A stretch of 32,000 nucleotides of DNA from Desulfobulbus propionicus DSM 2032 (GCF_000186885.1 NC_014972.1:540001-572000); one strand, 5' to 3'; shown: positions 24,801 through 27,320, numbered from the stretch's first letter. Notes: generated by a model not told the origin, from the letters alone. A program made the numbers and translations.

Positions 24801-25581
24801 TTGGCGCGGCAAGTCTTGCATAGGCTCGAATTAGGCCGTCAATGTTTTTTCGGTGATCGATGCCTCCTGTATACAACACATAAGGTTTATGGATGCCGTA
24901 CCGTTGCCGTAAGCCTGCTTCTTTTTTTGGTTTAATGCACATTGGGAGAAACTGGGAGTCCGCAGCAGTGGATATGTTGACCACTTGCTCGCCTGGTGTG
25001 CCCAGATGCTCGATGCTTTCTTGTCGGCTTGATTCTGAAATAGCCAATTGCAAATCAGTTCGGCGCAAGTGCATAAGCTTGTTTTCATACCAACGCTCAA
25101 CGACGGCATTTTCCAGGTAGGGTTTTCGATAAATAAATGGAATTAAATCGTACAGTATTGTGGCGATAGGGATGGATTGATTGAAACGTCTCACACTAGT
25201 AATAGCATCATCCACCAATCCCTCAAACAAACTTGAGATGAGGATAATCGAAGGATTTAGACTGAAAAGAAACGCCTCGTAAATCAACTCAGAAATCCTT
25301 CGAAATCGGTCGTTTGCCGCGTTTATGTGGTTGACGGTCCCACAGGGATACCAAACACGGATGTTTTCCTGCGGCAGCAGGCCGTAAAATGCTTCTCGAA
25401 TTGAAGTGATACTATCTTCGAATCGCCCGTTTAACGCCAGAATAACTTCATTTTCTTTACAGTTAAGGGTAATCTCTTTGGCCAATGCCAGCGTGTAGCG
25501 ACCGATACCGCGAAAACGATTTTCTGCTTGCGCACCCTGCATATCGATTACAATACGCATCAGACTGGCTCCTTGTGCCAT
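21829..25581 (-). CDS. Three-module GT4 glycosyltransferase (candidate glycan polymerase, WbdA/WbpX-like)
   Basis: 1250 aa in three modules.
- Module A (~aa 8-412): MRIVIDMQGAQAENRFRGIGRYT and HEGFGLPALEAMSCG.
- Module B (~428-825): RLAYVSPLPPERSGISDYS, GNSSFHQHMF and SRGETSAAVLDCMNYG.
- Module C (~868-1250): LFVDISELVQRDARSGIQRVVR and FGEGFGLPLIEAAKRK.

The likely true start is the ATG at 25560 (MRIVID...), which overlaps the upstream stop by 1 nt (TGATG). Confidence 0.85.
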   Translation of the reverse strand: MAQGASLMRIVIDMQGAQAENRFRGIGRYTLALAKEITLNCKENEVILALNGRFEDSITSIREAFYGLLPQENIRVWYPCGTVNHINAANDRFRRISELIYEAFLFSLNPSIILISSLFEGLVDDAITSVRRFNQSIPIATILYDLIPFIYRKPYLENAVVERWYENKLMHLRRTDLQLAISESSRQESIEHLGTPGEQVVNISTAADSQFLPMCIKPKKEAGLRQRYGIHKPYVLYTGGIDHRKNIDGLIRAYARLAAPIRKSHQLAVVCSIQPAERKRLHLLTSQQGLTAEEVVFTGYVPEEDLLALYNLCKAFVFPSWHEGFGLPALEAMSCGRAVIASNRSSLPEVISRKDALFDPFDDEAIANKLHQVLVDKGFRHSLEQHGIKQAKRFSWDKSAKLAIEALERCVASHATDRTVRALPRHRPRLAYVSPLPPERSGISDYSAELLPELARFYDIDVILAQEVVSPPWIKANCPQRSIQWFFANATQFDRVLYHFGNSSFHQHMFALLREIPGVVVLHDFYLSGIIAHMDYHGLSPGMWSQSLYSSHGYAALQHRFIEPDLAKVVWRYPCNHAVLQDAQGVIIHSENSRRLAQQWYGENTGSDWAHIPLLRIAVKTTVAKRNTARRVLGLGQDQYIVCSFGMMGPSKLNHRVLDAWLSSPLAEDDQCILIFVGENDAGEYGTTLRDKIARSDDSKERIRITGWTDASLFRQYLHAADVGVQLRTLSRGETSAAVLDCMNYGLATIVNANGSMADLPANAVWKLPDEFTDEQLAQALVTLRENSDQRYTLGISAQEMIQTCHAPRACATSYYAAIENFHNLSSAGLTALVRAIATLDGPHLSDEHLRRAAEAIDRSIVPRSAQAQLFVDISELVQRDARSGIQRVVRSILQEWLRTPPRGYRIEPVYATPDNPGYRYARQFTLDFLDCPSDLLDDDPICYHAGDVFLGLDFQPLVVPAQQNFYQTMRRAGVTVKFIVYDLLLLLLPHCFINGGSQLLQTWLKVVAQSDGAICISESVANDLQTWLEQNAKARQLPFDVDWFHLGADISGSVPTQGVPDNAAQVLRHMQEYHTFLMVGTIEPRKGYAQVLTAFEQLWMNGHQFNLAIVGKQGWMVESLVEQLRTHPENGKRLFWLEGISDEYLEKLYAVSACLIAASFGEGFGLPLIEAAKRKLPIIARDIPVFREVAGEHAYYFNDTPQENLSQAILNWLKLYKTSDHPKSCSMPWFTWKESASRLASLCLPRNLS

Positions 25582-27320
25582 CGTTCGATGGCCTTTTTTA
25601 AATCATTATAAATTTGACAGGCGCGGGGGGAAAGTTGCTTTTGGTCCCCATCTTTTTGCCTATTTAACGGGGAAGCTTGACAATTGTCGGAAAGTGGCTT
25701 CTGATCTACAAGGTTTTGTCGATGCTGTAAGCGAACTGGATGGTTGCCAAGTAACCTCAGATGCGCCTTTAATTGAGGGAAGGGTTCCAGGCAACGCAGG
25801 ACCAGTGTTTTGAGGCGTGGGCGGCGGGCAACATACAACTTGAGGTGCATTGCGGCCTGTCGTGCGGTCCTTCGGGGTCTGCTTCCGGGGGCGAGGGTGA
25901 TCCAAGCACGACTGCCACGTCCAACCCAGCGTATTGCCGTACTCATCCACCTGAGCGGTGCGGTTGTTCGCCAGGACCGACTATTGAGCACGGCCTGATG
26001 TATGGCAATGGCCTGCTGCACCCTCTGTTCGGCGTTCTGCACCGCAGTTTCGGCCTGCTGCACCCTCTGTTCGGCGCTCTGCGCCGCGGTTTCGGCACGC
26101 TGCACCCTCTGTTCGGCGTTCTGCACCGCAATTTCGGCCTGCTGCACCCTCTGTTCGGCGTTCTGCACCGCAGTTTCGGCACGCTGTGCCCTCTGTTCGG
26201 CGCTCTGCGCCGCGGTTTCGGCACGCTGCACCCTCTGTTCGGCGTTCTGCACCGCAGTTTCGGCACGCTGTGCCCTCTGTTCGGCGCTCTGCGCCGCGGT
26301 TTCGGCCTGCTGCACCCTCTGTTCGGCGTTCTGCACCGCAGTTTCGGCACGCTGTGCCCTCTGTTCGGCGCTCTGCGCCGCGGTTTCGGCACGCTGCACC
26401 CTCTGTTCGGCGTTCTGCACCGCAGTTTCGGCACGCTGTGCCCTCTGTTCGGCGTTCTGCGCCGCAGTTTCGGCCTGCTGCACCCTCTGTTCGGCGTTCT
26501 GCACCGCGGTTTCGGCACGCTGTGCCCTTTGTTCGGCCGTTTGAGCTGTGGTTTCGGCCATGCCAATGCGGGCTGTTAGATATTGCTGATATCGACCAGC
26601 AATGTTTTTCAGGTCAATCCCATAGTCCTTTGCAAAGGGGGCAGCGGTTGTCTGCATTATGAACGGATCCGCCACTCTTTGGGCAATCACGGCATAATCA
26701 GGGCTTACACCTTCCAAAACGTCCATGACAGTCAATGTTTCACAATATGCCAGTTTAGGGGATTCCTGCAATCGGACAATTTTTACTCGGTTGAAACCAT
26801 AATGCACTGGTAGAAAGCTTAAGAGTTCAGGGGGGATGGGGCGCCTATGGGTTGGGTCTAAATAAAAATTTTTTGTTGCGACGGCCAAATTCTCCGGATT
26901 GGGCGTTTCAAGGATCAACAAACCTCCTGGCAGCAGCACCCGGAGGGCCTCCTGTATCAGTTTCTGCAATTTTGCAAACGGTATATGCTCAACAACATGA
27001 AATGCAGTAACTGCGGCCTGGCTAGCTTCAGGCAATTCCTCTAAGGCCTCGACAGCATCTTTGATGGCAACCCGCAGATTTCGCTCTTGGCAGGCGGCAA
27101 GCATCCCCTCATCCAAGTCAACCCCGTAGGCATGAAAACCGGATTCGTTGAGCAATTCTAGCCATTCACCCCGACCGCAACCTAGATCGATAGCTTCGGC
27201 CGCCTCATATATCCTTGACAAGGGGGTTACAAAAGGTAGGTACACCTGCAAGCGAGATTTGATTAATTCTCGGGGACCACGATGCTTTTCTTCAAAGGCT
27301 CGGTAAAAATTATGTTCCAT
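25560..27320 (-). CDS. Class I SAM-dependent methyltransferase fused to a 182-aa repeat-built coiled-coil/helical rod and a basic C-terminal region
   Basis: 586 aa. MT motifs are AIDLGCGRGEWLELL, AFHVVEHIP, LLPGGLLILETPNPEN and YLDPTHRRPIP. Residues 255-436 are 13 units of a 14-aa repeat, AETA[AV]Q[NS]AEQR[AV]Q[RQ]. The last 150 aa are Arg-rich. The ATG overlaps the upstream stop by 1 nt (TAATG at 27320). Confidence 0.8.
   Translation of the reverse strand: MEHNFYRAFEEKHRGPRELIKSRLQVYLPFVTPLSRIYEAAEAIDLGCGRGEWLELLNESGFHAYGVDLDEGMLAACQERNLRVAIKDAVEALEELPEASQAAVTAFHVVEHIPFAKLQKLIQEALRVLLPGGLLILETPNPENLAVATKNFYLDPTHRRPIPPELLSFLPVHYGFNRVKIVRLQESPKLAYCETLTVMDVLEGVSPDYAVIAQRVADPFIMQTTAAPFAKDYGIDLKNIAGRYQQYLTARIGMAETTAQTAEQRAQRAETAVQNAEQRVQQAETAAQNAEQRAQRAETAVQNAEQRVQRAETAAQSAEQRAQRAETAVQNAEQRVQQAETAAQSAEQRAQRAETAVQNAEQRVQRAETAAQSAEQRAQRAETAVQNAEQRVQQAEIAVQNAEQRVQRAETAAQSAEQRVQQAETAVQNAEQRVQQAIAIHQAVLNSRSWRTTAPLRWMSTAIRWVGRGSRAWITLAPGSRPRRTARQAAMHLKLYVARRPRLKTLVLRCLEPFPQLKAHLRLLGNHPVRLQHRQNLVDQKPLSDNCQASPLNRQKDGDQKQLSPRACQIYNDLKKAIERWHKEPV
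26013..26558. repeat. Tandem repeat, 13 x 42 bp (coding, in frame), with identical higher-order 84-bp blocks
   Basis: By hand alignment, the units starting at 26013, 26139 and 26307 are identical. The units at 26181, 26265 and 26349 are identical, as are those at 26223 and 26391. The 84-bp block 26181-26264 equals 26349-26432. No stop codon occurs in four of the six frames across the array: both-strand ORFs at 25773-26579, 26002-26544 and 26186-26662 on + and 25943-26566 on -. Confidence 0.95.

What the first reader, a model, noticed from the sequence alone, without database searches (positions are those of the whole stretch)
25560..27320. Methyltransferase fused to a 26-heptad, perfectly periodic helical rod: candidate terminator and chain-length ruler for the glycan
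The 586-aa protein has three parts.
- An N-terminal class I SAM-methyltransferase domain (GCGRG, LLPGGLLILETPNPEN, DPTHRRP).
- Residues 255-436: 13 uninterrupted 14-aa units, AETA[AV]Q[NS]AEQR[AV]Q[RQ]. That is 26 heptads with Ala/Val at fixed core positions and no stutter or break.
- A 150-aa Arg-rich tail.

The order terminating enzyme, long coiled coil, C-terminal membrane- or partner-binding region is the architecture of WbdD in the E. coli O9a polymannose system. There the coil length sets O-antigen modal length. This gene is also translationally coupled (1-nt TAATG and TGATG overlaps) to a further methyltransferase upstream and to a three-module GT4 polymerase candidate downstream.

The unusual feature is that the rod is built from near-identical repeats rather than a diverged coil. 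At ~0.15 nm per helical residue, 182 aa gives ~27 nm (my arithmetic). The Ala-rich core leaves the oligomeric state open.
Basis: partly seen in the sequence, partly recalled or inferred. Interest (0 to 1): 0.8.

Follow-up and report, generated by a model that had tools for sequence, protein, structure and literature searches.

The report
O8-type WbdD terminator with repeat-built ruler
This Desulfobulbus propionicus gene is an ordinary member of the known family of O-antigen chain-terminating methyltransferases (E. coli O8 WbdD type), but its coiled-coil "ruler" is exactly 20 heptads longer and built from almost identical, recently duplicated 14-residue repeats, which hints that bacteria tune sugar-chain length by changing repeat number.

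Summary
Window 25560-27320 (-) encodes a 586-aa protein of Desulfobulbus propionicus DSM 2032. It has a class I methyltransferase head, 13 uninterrupted 14-aa units (aa 255-436) and a basic 150-aa tail.

The protein is a homologue of E. coli O8 / Klebsiella O5 WbdD (methyl-only terminator) in both head (46% identity, E 1e-82) and tail (E 7e-10). It is not of the O9a kinase-methyltransferase type. WbdA, WbdB and WbdC counterparts are also in the window.

The family is very large: 4,103 cluster representatives at E<=1e-30. Of 80 homologue loci, 71 carry Wzt and 70 a WbdA-like polymerase.

The rod is a clean 30-heptad Ala/Val-core helix, about 31 nm if straight. It is exactly 20 heptads longer than the O8 rod, in the same heptad phase.

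Repeat-built rods are a recurrent minority (17% of 126 relatives). This array is the longest found, and several of its 42-bp units are 100% identical. Close relatives differ by whole heptads.

Open problems: the window has no wzm/wzt exporter, the cluster holds three IS elements, and ruler function is inferred only.

Verdict: a new member of a known kind, of moderate interest.

The parts
25560..27320 (-). wbdD(O8-type) gene: 586-aa chain-terminating methyltransferase candidate (stop codon 25560-25562)
   Evidence: ORF. BLASTP to E. coli O8 WbdD gives 46% identity over aa 1-308 (E 1e-82) plus a tail match at E 7e-10. Identical to a D. propionicus DSM 2032 protein.
26613..27320 (-). Catalytic head, aa 1-236: class I SAM-dependent methyltransferase domain
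   Evidence: Pfam Methyltransf_11/23/25. Best solved relative is 3DLI, E 5.6e-37 by sequence and 7.5e-14 by Foldseek. Used alone it finds 4,103 representatives at E<=1e-30.
25983..26612 (-). Helical rod, aa 237-446: 30 uninterrupted heptads (a=V/A, d=A, e=E, g=R/A), about 31 nm if a straight coiled coil
   Evidence: AF2 helices 237-340 and 347-446. Register table. Pfam Alanine_zipper hit above its cut-off, 32.3 against 23.1 bits.
26013..26558 (-). Tandem array: 13 x 42 bp (14 aa), organised as 84-bp V-type/A-type super-units
   Evidence: TRF score 894. Unit table and identity matrix show several units 100% identical and the first unit most diverged.
25563..25982 (-). Conserved basic C-terminal module, aa 447-586. 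It starts at the junction motif NSRSWRTTAPLRW. Candidate membrane-association and polymerase-recruitment region.
   Evidence: Homologous to the E. coli O8 WbdD tail, which in turn matches the O9 WbdD tail at 34% over 113 aa. An HMM of this module hits 126 of 150 relatives. Amphipathic stretch 454-474 with muH 0.72; K+R 29 against D+E 8. The function is taken from the literature on WbdD (PMC11231755).
21829..25560 (-). WbdA-like three-module GT4 polymerase. Start taken at M8 (ATG at 25560); the longest ORF runs to 25581.
   Evidence: Three Glycos_transf_1 stretches. Module 1 is 46% identical to WbdA-O8, E 7e-112. Full-length homologues (900-1350 bits) sit next to wbdD-like genes in many loci. 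AAGGAG lies 8 nt before M8.
27320..29107 (-). Coupled upstream 595-aa protein: Methyltransf_24 + Methyltransf_25 + C-terminal beta-sandwich (aa 455-595 = 27323-27745)
   Evidence: Pfam. TAATG overlap. AF2 pLDDT 95 for the beta-sandwich, with weak fold matches to FW/CARDB/Wzt-CBD domains. Homologues lie between wzt and wbdD in L005 and L084.
29146..31946 (-). manB (29146-30519) and manC (30510-31946): GDP-mannose supply
   Evidence: Pfam. 65% and 43% identity to the E. coli O8-locus ManB and ManC.
9048..13243 (-). WbdC-like GT4 (9048-10181), WbdB-like GT4 (10178-11311), Rmd-like SDR reductase (11311-12231), Gmd (12209-13243)
   Evidence: BLASTP gives WbdC 36% (E 1e-88) and WbdB 31% (E 1e-52). 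Gmd matches TIGR01472 at 475 bits, above its cut-off. The SDR partner has Pfam/NCBIfam matches but no specific family.
13267..21679 (.). Low-GC, IS-laden island interrupting the cluster: three IS elements, an MBOAT + AlgX-like pair and a sulfotransferase-like gene
   Evidence: GC 31-49%. Pfam. IS5 transposase at 18494-19591 (+). In relatives gmd-rmd directly follow the polymerase.

Best explanation
The gene encodes the D. propionicus counterpart of the methyl-only WbdD of E. coli O8 / K. pneumoniae O5.

**Proposed mechanism**
1. A WbdA-like three-module GT4 polymerase, with WbdB/WbdC-like primers, builds a GDP-mannose-derived homopolymer on undecaprenyl phosphate at the inner face of the membrane. 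Because Gmd and an Rmd-like reductase are present, the polymer may contain 6-deoxyhexose.
2. The basic C-terminal module of the 586-aa protein holds it at the membrane, next to the polymerase.
3. The 30-heptad Ala/Val-core coiled coil, probably a parallel oligomer as in trimeric O9a WbdD, holds the methyltransferase head about 31 nm away.
4. Only chains long enough to reach the head are methylated at their non-reducing end. Methylation stops extension, and in the canonical system it also flags the chain for export.

**How the rod arose**
The rod grew by recent tandem duplication of a 42/84-bp unit. It is exactly 20 heptads longer than the E. coli O8 rod, in the same phase.

**Shown**
- Homology of head, tail and neighbouring genes.
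- Repeat anatomy and predicted helicity.
- Family-wide heptad-quantised variation in rod length.

**Inferred**
- Methylation of the chain terminus.
- Oligomeric state.
- Membrane and polymerase binding by the tail.
- That rod length sets modal chain length here.
For: **Homology and locus**
- Head 46% identical to WbdD-O8 (E 1e-82); tail homologous (E 7e-10), sharing NSRSWRxTxPLRW and the terminal helix.
- WbdA module 1 46%, WbdB 31% and WbdC 36%, ManB 65% and ManC 43%.
- Gene order parallels the E. coli O8 locus.
- Translational coupling on both sides.

**Literature**
- KpO5/EcO8 use a three-module WbdA and a methyl-adding WbdD. WbdD has a coiled-coil ruler and a C-terminal amphipathic helix/recruitment site (PMC11231755).
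- Insertions and deletions in the O9a coil shift modal length, and the coil is a trimer (PMC5082667, PMC3482155).

**Rod**
- AF2 helix 237-446 with a perfect heptad register.
- Anchor distance 243 against 103 residues, both = 5 mod 7.

**Family**
- 71 of 80 homologue loci carry Wzt, 68 Wzm, 70 a WbdA-like polymerase.
- The relatives' Wzt proteins carry the cap-binding Wzt_C domain.
- Natural fusions place GT4 modules after the tail.
- Rod length 42-399 residues with non-random heptad phase, p 4e-12.
- Of 89 closely related pairs that differ in rod length, 69 differ by a multiple of 7.
Against: - No wzm/wzt anywhere in the window. In relatives they lie directly upstream.
- No D. propionicus protein appears among the 120 best homologues of the relative's Wzt.
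- Three IS elements and a foreign low-GC island sit inside the cluster, so the pathway could be rearranged or impaired.
- Polymerase modules 2 and 3 are only GT4-level similar to WbdA-O8, so the polymer is unknown.
- The Ala/Val core is weakly hydrophobic, and the oligomeric state is untested because only single-chain AF2 was available.
- The AF2 model has a low-confidence kink at 341-346 and a mean pLDDT of only 74.8.
- No experimental data on D. propionicus LPS were found.
Confidence: 0.75

Rival explanations
1. Decaying or rewired locus. In strain DSM 2032 the O8-type pathway has lost its dedicated Wzm/Wzt exporter and been invaded by IS elements. The terminator is then a relic or has been re-used, and the repeat expansion is neutral drift rather than tuning of chain length.
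For: - No wzm/wzt in the window, and no close D. propionicus Wzt in the database listing.
- Three IS elements and a low-GC island lie between the polymerase and gmd.
- Relatives keep wzm-wzt adjacent.
Against: - All biosynthetic ORFs are intact, and translational coupling is preserved.
- The array keeps frame and a flawless heptad pattern over 30 heptads. Substitutions are confined to conservative A/V at position a and polar changes at c and f.
- An exporter could lie elsewhere in the 3.85-Mb genome, which could not be inspected.
Confidence: 0.15
2. The rod is only an oligomerisation and spacer element. Chain length is set mainly by terminator-to-polymerase stoichiometry, so repeat number has little effect on modal length.
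For: [quoted passage not shown]
- Rod length varies about ten-fold across the family with no known phenotype.
Against: - In O9a WbdD, engineered insertions and deletions shift modal length (PMC5082667).
- Heptad phase is conserved across rods of 42-399 residues (p 4e-12). This points to a constraint on the relative geometry of head and tail, not just on the presence of a coil.
Confidence: 0.15
3. The copy number in the assembly is wrong (repeat collapse or expansion), so '13 units' and the '+20 heptads' arithmetic are assembly-dependent.
For: - Units are up to 100% identical over 84 bp.
- All short-read Logan contigs that carry the same genes stop inside the array.
- Length differences between metagenomic alleles with identical flanks could partly be the same artefact.
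Against: - The window comes from a 3.85-Mb contig of the type strain.
- The array has an ordered, non-degenerate pattern of variant units.
- Any collapse would change the number of units, not the existence or periodicity of the rod.
Confidence: 0.1
4. The repeat region is a single stable alpha-helix or a flexible linker rather than a coiled coil.
For: - The core is only Ala/Val.
- No multimer prediction could be run.
- Single-chain AF2 folds the helix back on itself.
Against: - Charged residues are only about 28% of the unit (E, E, R, and R or Q), far below typical E/K/R-rich single helices (from my own knowledge).
- Strict small-hydrophobic a/d positions with e=Glu and g=Arg fit inter-helix pairing.
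- Pfam Alanine_zipper (a trimeric Lpp/OprI-type coil) scores above its cut-off.
Confidence: 0.05

Closest known systems
WbdD of E. coli O8 / Klebsiella pneumoniae O5 (methyl-only O-antigen chain terminator)
   Same: - Homologous methyltransferase head (46% identity).
- Homologous C-terminal module with the SRSWRxTxPLRW junction motif.
- A helical rod between the two, with the same heptad phase (anchor distance = 5 mod 7).
- The same neighbours: three-module WbdA, WbdB, WbdC, ManB, ManC.
   Different: - The rod is 20 heptads longer (anchor distance 243 against 103 residues).
- It is built from near-identical 14-aa repeats. The E. coli rod is a diverged, TRF-negative coil that is length-invariant in 302 complete genomes.
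- No wzm/wzt is adjacent.
- Extras here: a double methyltransferase, Gmd/Rmd and an IS island.
- Polymerase modules 2 and 3 are not orthologous.
WbdD of E. coli O9a / K. pneumoniae O3 (bifunctional kinase-methyltransferase; experimentally proven coiled-coil ruler)
   Same: - The order terminator head, coiled coil, membrane/polymerase-binding tail.
- The junction motif (HRSRSWRMT) and the tail are related through the O8 protein.
- The ruler logic, taken from the literature (PMC5082667, PMC11231755).
   Different: - No kinase domain here.
- The methyltransferase heads are not detectably related beyond the SAM motif (E 2e-4). WbdD O9a is absent from the PDB sequence hits and from the top 50 fold hits.
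- The expected cap is methyl, not methyl-phosphate.
Other coiled-coil terminators: WbbB (K. pneumoniae O12 / Raoultella terrigena), ORF6 of KpO7, ORF7 of KpO4
   Same: A terminating enzyme at the distal end of a coiled coil, with polymerase modules at the proximal end. Some relatives of this family are likewise fused to GT4 modules in one chain (PMC11231755).
   Different: Their terminating chemistry differs (Kdo transfer or methyl-phosphate). The head domains are unrelated, and in WbbB and ORF6 the polymerase is fused to the terminator.
3DLI, SAM-dependent methyltransferase from Archaeoglobus fulgidus (structural-genomics entry)
   Same: The closest solved structure to the catalytic head: E 5.6e-37 over aa 4-199, 33% identity, TM 0.72 on the target.
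   Different: It is only 240 aa, with no rod or tail, and its function is unassigned.

Membership tests
O8-type WbdD (E. coli O8 / K. pneumoniae O5 chain-terminating methyltransferase) | N-terminal methyltransferase domain homologous to WbdD-O8 | tested here: met
   BLASTP 46% identity over aa 1-308, E 1e-82.
O8-type WbdD (E. coli O8 / K. pneumoniae O5 chain-terminating methyltransferase) | Extended helical coiled-coil segment between head and tail | tested here: met
   AF2 helix 237-446. 30 heptads with an a/d core. Oligomerisation itself was not tested.
O8-type WbdD (E. coli O8 / K. pneumoniae O5 chain-terminating methyltransferase) | Homologous C-terminal membrane/polymerase-recruitment module | tested here: met
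   29% identity, E 7e-10, with shared NSRSWRxTxPLRW and a terminal amphipathic helix. An HMM of the module hits 126 of 150 relatives. Binding function was not tested.
O8-type WbdD (E. coli O8 / K. pneumoniae O5 chain-terminating methyltransferase) | Encoded next to a multi-module WbdA-type GT4 polymerase, with WbdB/WbdC and GDP-mannose genes | tested here: met
   gene order compared with L003.
O8-type WbdD (E. coli O8 / K. pneumoniae O5 chain-terminating methyltransferase) | Partnered with a Wzm/Wzt ABC exporter whose Wzt carries a cap-binding C-terminal domain | tested here: not met
   No wzm/wzt in the 32-kb window at tblastn E<=1e-3. No D. propionicus hit among the top 120 Wzt homologues. 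The feature is met in 68-71 of 80 relatives. The rest of the genome could not be read.
O8-type WbdD (E. coli O8 / K. pneumoniae O5 chain-terminating methyltransferase) | Methylates the non-reducing terminal sugar and thereby controls modal chain length | not testable with these tools
   Needs enzymology and LPS analysis.
O9a-type WbdD (bifunctional kinase-methyltransferase) | Eukaryotic-like kinase domain between methyltransferase and coil | tested here: not met
   No kinase family in Pfam or NCBIfam. No alignment to the kinase region of O9 WbdD.
O9a-type WbdD (bifunctional kinase-methyltransferase) | Methyltransferase domain of the O9a type | tested here: not met
   Only an 81-residue SAM-motif match, E 2e-4. 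WbdD chains are absent from the PDB sequence hits at E<=0.01 and from the top 50 Foldseek hits.
O9a-type WbdD (bifunctional kinase-methyltransferase) | Trimeric parallel coiled coil | not testable with these tools
   No multimer prediction was available. The Ala/Val core and the Alanine_zipper hit are compatible with a trimer but not diagnostic.
Lpp/OprI alanine-zipper lipoproteins (PF11839) | Small outer-membrane lipoprotein with a lipobox and a roughly 50-residue alanine-zipper trimer | tested here: not met
   The Pfam score of 32.3 exceeds the 23.1 cut-off. However, the match is an internal segment of a 586-aa cytoplasmic-type enzyme, and NCBIfam Ala_zip_lipo scores 20.1, below its cut-off of 43. 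The resemblance is in coil composition only.
Tropomyosin (PF00261) | Score above the Pfam gathering threshold | tested here: not met
   30.3 bits against a cut-off of 38.6. The PDB tropomyosin hits at E about 1e-5 reflect heptad composition.

The most novel reading that the evidence does not exclude
In O8-type WbdD terminators the ruler is an evolvable tandem-repeat array. Unequal recombination or slippage between near-identical 21n-bp units adds or removes whole heptads. This produces natural allelic series of ruler length, and hence of O-antigen modal length, between otherwise near-identical strains. The D. propionicus gene, with 13 x 42 bp and several units 100% identical, is the most extreme and most recently expanded example. 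It may even be heterogeneous in copy number within a population.
Probability: 0.35. Interest if true: 0.6.

Novelty: new member of a known kind. Interest (0 to 1): 0.4.

Why it matters
The coiled-coil ruler that sets O-antigen length has been shown by engineering in one system, E. coli O9a.

This gene, together with the family pattern behind it, suggests that nature runs the same experiment. Rods range from 42 to 399 residues and change in whole heptads, often through near-identical tandem repeats. Near-identical proteins can differ only in rod length.

If real, this gives two things:
- a ready-made allelic series for testing how ruler length maps to chain length;
- a simple genetic route (repeat copy number) by which bacteria could retune surface-glycan length, which matters for resistance to phage, complement and predators.

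For D. propionicus itself, the finding predicts a methyl-capped polymannose- or 6-deoxyhexose-type O-polysaccharide with unusually long modal length, provided an exporter exists.

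Tried and rejected
- **O9a membership.** Filing the protein under O9a-type WbdD was rejected: no kinase domain and an unrelated head.
- **Biased first statistic.** The first rod analysis used regex anchors on the top-120 full-length hits (85 of 97 in two mod-7 classes, p 3e-34). This list was biased because the query's own AQ-rich rod contributed to the ranking. I replaced it with a methyltransferase-domain-only exhaustive search and HMM anchors. The signal persists but is weaker: three classes hold 75%, p 4e-12. A species-dereplicated genome set gave p 0.003 with less reliable anchors.
- **Context beyond position 32000.** This failed four times. P0001 is not in the gene-position index. The ManC and P0384 look-ups returned only 5.6-kb Logan contigs.
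- **Is the upstream MT's tail a Wzt_C cap-binding module?** hhalign probability is 2.6%. Foldseek gives only weak generic beta-sandwich matches, Wzt-CBD among them. No claim is made.
- **AF2 kink at 341-346.** Judged an artefact of single-chain modelling.
- **Alanine_zipper and Tropomyosin hits.** Judged compositional.
- **Literature on tandem-repeat rulers.** Nothing found. The key 2015 ruler paper is not held, so absence from the literature is not established.

Full report
**1. What is in the sequence**

Window 25560-27320 (-) is a 586-aa ORF. It is identical to a protein that NCBI names 'Methyltransferase type 11' of Desulfobulbus propionicus DSM 2032.

- Head. Residues 39-159 match the class I SAM-methyltransferase families Methyltransf_11/23/25 at E about 1e-15.
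- Repeats. Residues 255-436 are exactly 13 contiguous 14-residue units of the form AETA[AV]Q[NS]AEQR[AV]Q[RQ].
- DNA level. This is a 42/84-bp array (TRF score 894, 94% matches) at 26013-26558. Units 5=7=9, 4=8 and 6=10=13 are 100% identical, two 84-bp super-units are identical, and the first unit is the most diverged. That pattern indicates recent duplication or homogenisation.
- Register. The heptad register runs beyond the repeats through 30 heptads (aa 237-446): a=Val/Ala, d=Ala, e=Glu, g=Arg/Ala, b=Gln, with no stutter.
- Predicted structure. AlphaFold2 on a 33-sequence alignment predicts helix for 237-340 and 347-446 at pLDDT about 75-80. The low-confidence kink at 341-346 is probably a fold-back artefact of modelling one chain, since the same hexapeptide is helical in two other units.
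- Length. 210 helical residues correspond to about 31 nm; the 182-residue array alone gives about 27 nm.
- Tail. The last 150 residues are basic (20 Arg; K+R 29 against D+E 8) and predicted as several helices. One is strongly amphipathic (454-474, muH 0.72).

**2. Gene junctions**

The upstream gene's stop codon overlaps the start codon by one base (TAATG).

Downstream, the longest ORF of the glycosyltransferase begins at 25581. The ATG at 25560 (Met8, MRIVID...) is the better-supported start:
- it has an AAGGAG 8 nt upstream;
- it is where every homologue alignment begins;

**3. What it is**

I fetched the rfb locus of E. coli IAI1 (serotype O8). Its order is manC-manB-wzm-wzt-wbdD-wbdA-wbdB-wbdC.

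- The 586-aa protein aligns to the 425-aa O8 WbdD over the whole head (46% identity, E 1e-82).
- It aligns separately over the tail (29%, E 7e-10). The tail match includes the junction motif NSRSWRxTxPLRW and the terminal '...SxRAxxIYNxLK' helix.
- The 1250-aa neighbour matches module 1 of the 1213-aa, three-module WbdA-O8 (46%, E 7e-112).
- The two GT4 genes at 9048-11311 match WbdC (36%) and WbdB (31%).

Against WbdD of an O9 strain (E. coli HS), only an 81-residue SAM-motif stretch (E 2e-4) and the rod/junction motif (E 0.002) align. No kinase domain is present. O8 and O9 WbdD themselves share only the tail (34% over 113 residues, E 2e-16).

The protein is therefore an O8/O5-type, methyl-only terminator, not an O9a-type one. 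This fits the published description:
- K. pneumoniae O5 (= E. coli O8) uses a three-module WbdA and a methyl-adding WbdD.
- WbdD has a coiled-coil ruler, a C-terminal amphipathic helix and a polymerase-recruitment site (PMC11231755).

The closest solved structure to the head is the unannotated A. fulgidus methyltransferase 3DLI.

**4. How common the architecture is, and where it lives**

The methyltransferase domain alone retrieves 4,103 cluster representatives at E<=1e-30. JGI already labels some members 'O-antigen chain-terminating methyltransferase'.

In 80 genome loci carrying homologues, tblastn probes found:

| Probe | Loci with a hit (of 80) |
|---|---|
| Wzt | 71 |
| Wzm | 68 |
| WbdA-like polymerase | 70 |
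| Homologue of this window's 1250-aa GT | 69 (many full-length) |
| Gmd | 39 |
| Rmd-like reductase | 37 |

- The common order is manC-wzm-wzt-wbdD-polymerase-gmd-rmd-wbdB-wbdC (for example L018).
- The relatives' Wzt proteins carry the Wzt_C cap-binding domain.
- Some relatives fuse head, rod, junction motif and one or two GT4 modules in a single chain. This places the C-terminal end of the rod at the polymerase.

**5. The rod in family context**

Measured from the conserved PDY motif to the Trp of the junction motif, the spacing is 243 residues here and 103 in E. coli O8 WbdD. Both equal 5 mod 7, so the difference is exactly 20 heptads.

For an unbiased sample I took the 150 best representatives of the head-only search. 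Of these, 126 have both modules by HMM.
- Rods span 42-399 residues, with a median of 136.
- The mod-7 distribution is strongly non-uniform ([30,22,7,9,42,12,4], p 4e-12).
- 22 of 126 (17%) contain >=42 residues of >=80%-identical tandem repeats, 10 contain >=70, 4 contain >=140, and only the D. propionicus protein exceeds 180 (208).
- Periods are almost always 7, 14, 21, 28 or 42 residues.

At DNA level:
- 33 of 78 homologous genes have TRF arrays, nearly all in the rod and mostly with periods that are multiples of 21 nt.
- D. propionicus has the top score (901).
- E. coli O8 wbdD has none.

The repeat units are unrelated between lineages (AEEKAGQ, AEAKASE, EQRADLAEARAADQ and others), so expansion has happened independently many times.

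Among 98 protein pairs with >=80% identical heads:
- 89 differ in rod length, and 69 of those differ by a multiple of 7.
- Some pairs have 100%-identical head and tail yet differ by 35 or 70 residues.

As a control, E. coli O8 wbdD, whose rod is not repetitive, is recovered at >=80% coverage in 302 of 303 complete genomes that carry it. In 24 of the 25 sampled rows it is a single ungapped 1278-nt match; the 25th row is the one partial hit.

Caveats:
- Most variable pairs come from short-read metagenome assemblies, which can collapse such arrays.
- Logan contigs of this very locus all stop inside the array.
- An earlier, stronger-looking statistic was biased by the query's own rod and should not be used.
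- A species-dereplicated set gave a weaker signal and also showed 11/22-residue periods.

**6. What does not fit**

- The window contains no wzm or wzt. In the closest relatives they sit immediately upstream of the double methyltransferase and wbdD (L005, L084).
- No D. propionicus protein appears among the 120 best homologues of the relative's Wzt, which reach down to about 49% identity.
- Between the polymerase and gmd lies an 8.4-kb low-GC island. It holds three IS elements, an MBOAT/AlgX-like O-acylation pair and a sulfotransferase-like gene.
- I could not read the genome beyond the window. Whether an exporter exists elsewhere is therefore open, and a partly disabled pathway cannot be excluded.
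- Polymerase modules 2 and 3 are not orthologous to those of WbdA-O8. Together with Gmd and an Rmd-like reductase, this suggests the polymer may contain a 6-deoxyhexose such as D-rhamnose. That is an inference only.

**7. The coupled upstream gene**

The upstream gene (27320-29107) encodes two methyltransferase domains plus a C-terminal beta-sandwich.
- AF2 gives pLDDT 95 for the beta-sandwich.
- Its fold matches are weak and generic: FW/NBR1, CARDB, glycosidase accessory domains and the Aquifex Wzt carbohydrate-binding domain, at TM about 0.45-0.55.
- A profile comparison with Wzt_C is negative (probability 2.6%).
- It belongs to a conserved family of about 600 aa in Pseudomonas, cyanobacteria and others.
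- It occurs in only a minority of wbdD loci (7 of 80).
- Its role is unknown. It may add further methylation of the glycan, guided by a glycan-binding module.

**8. Verdict**

The functional guess is right in kind, but the correct reference is O8-type WbdD.

The protein is a new member of a known, very large and partly annotated family. Its distinguishing trait is the longest and most homogeneous repeat-built ruler seen in the samples examined. It illustrates a family-wide pattern of heptad-quantised ruler evolution that I did not find described in the searchable literature (coverage is incomplete).

That ruler length sets chain length here, the oligomeric state, the capping chemistry and the export route are all inferred, not shown.

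Noticed in passing
window 13267-21679: A low-GC (31-49%) island interrupts the glycan cluster between the polymerase and gmd. It holds three IS elements (DDE_Tnp_1_4 at 20306-21679 (-), an IS5-family transposase at 18494-19591 (+), and an HTH-only transposase fragment at 15202-15777 (-)). It also holds an MBOAT (17304-18479), an AlgX/SGNH-like protein (15830-17302) and a sulfotransferase-like protein (13267-14760). This is probably an acquired glycan O-acylation/sulfation module. In relatives gmd-rmd directly follow the polymerase.
   Followed up: partly
window 1-32000 (whole window); compare L005:6185-8217 and L084:8221-10259: There is no wzm/wzt ABC exporter anywhere in the window. Close relatives have wzm-wzt immediately upstream of the double methyltransferase and wbdD. 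No D. propionicus protein was listed among the 120 best homologues of the relative's Wzt. The exporter is either elsewhere, divergent or lost.
   Followed up: partly
window 27320-29107 (-), beta-sandwich at 27323-27745: The coupled upstream 595-aa protein has two methyltransferase domains (Methyltransf_24 and Methyltransf_25) and a confidently predicted C-terminal beta-sandwich (pLDDT 95). The sandwich has only weak, generic fold matches (FW/NBR1, CARDB, Wzt carbohydrate-binding domain), and hhalign against Wzt_C is negative. The family of about 600 aa is conserved in Pseudomonas and cyanobacteria, and its function is unknown.
   Followed up: partly
window 25773-26662, both strands: The repeat array is free of stop codons in several frames. 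This creates long shadow ORFs (25773-26579 +, 25943-26566 -, 26002-26544 +, 26186-26662 +) with repetitive translations. They are artefacts of the repeat, not genes. The minus-strand ORF 18569-19693 is likewise a shadow of the IS5 transposase on the plus strand.
   Followed up: yes
L001, L002, L086 (Logan contigs, ends at about 5654-5680): Short-read assemblies from several sequencing runs carry manC-manB-MT595-wbdD, with ManC and MT595 products identical to the window's. All of them terminate inside the repeat array, at residues 276-284 of the protein. Short reads therefore cannot resolve copy number.
   Followed up: no
L028, L037, L067 (wbdD-like genes at about 10001-11500): Some homologues (Azotobacter, Microbulbifer, Pseudomonas) have rods with 11- or 22-residue repeat periods (33/66-nt TRF arrays) instead of heptad multiples. 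This suggests hendecad-type coils in part of the family.
   Followed up: no
P0081, P0342, P0265, P0266, P0349: These are natural single-chain fusions of the O8-type methyltransferase head, the rod and one or two GT4 modules (781-1513 aa). P0081 also shows the SRSWRLTSPLR junction motif before its GT4 module. The layout is analogous to the fused terminator-polymerase arrangement described for K. pneumoniae O12 and O7.
   Followed up: partly
L003:33456-34733 and L085:27966-30092: E. coli O8 and O9 WbdD share only the C-terminal module (34% over 113 aa, including the SRSWRxT junction motif). Their catalytic heads are unrelated at sequence level. The junction motif is nearly invariant across the whole family (S447, S449 and W450 are invariant in both 28-33-sequence alignments; T453 is invariant in one and nearly so in the other).
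   Followed up: partly
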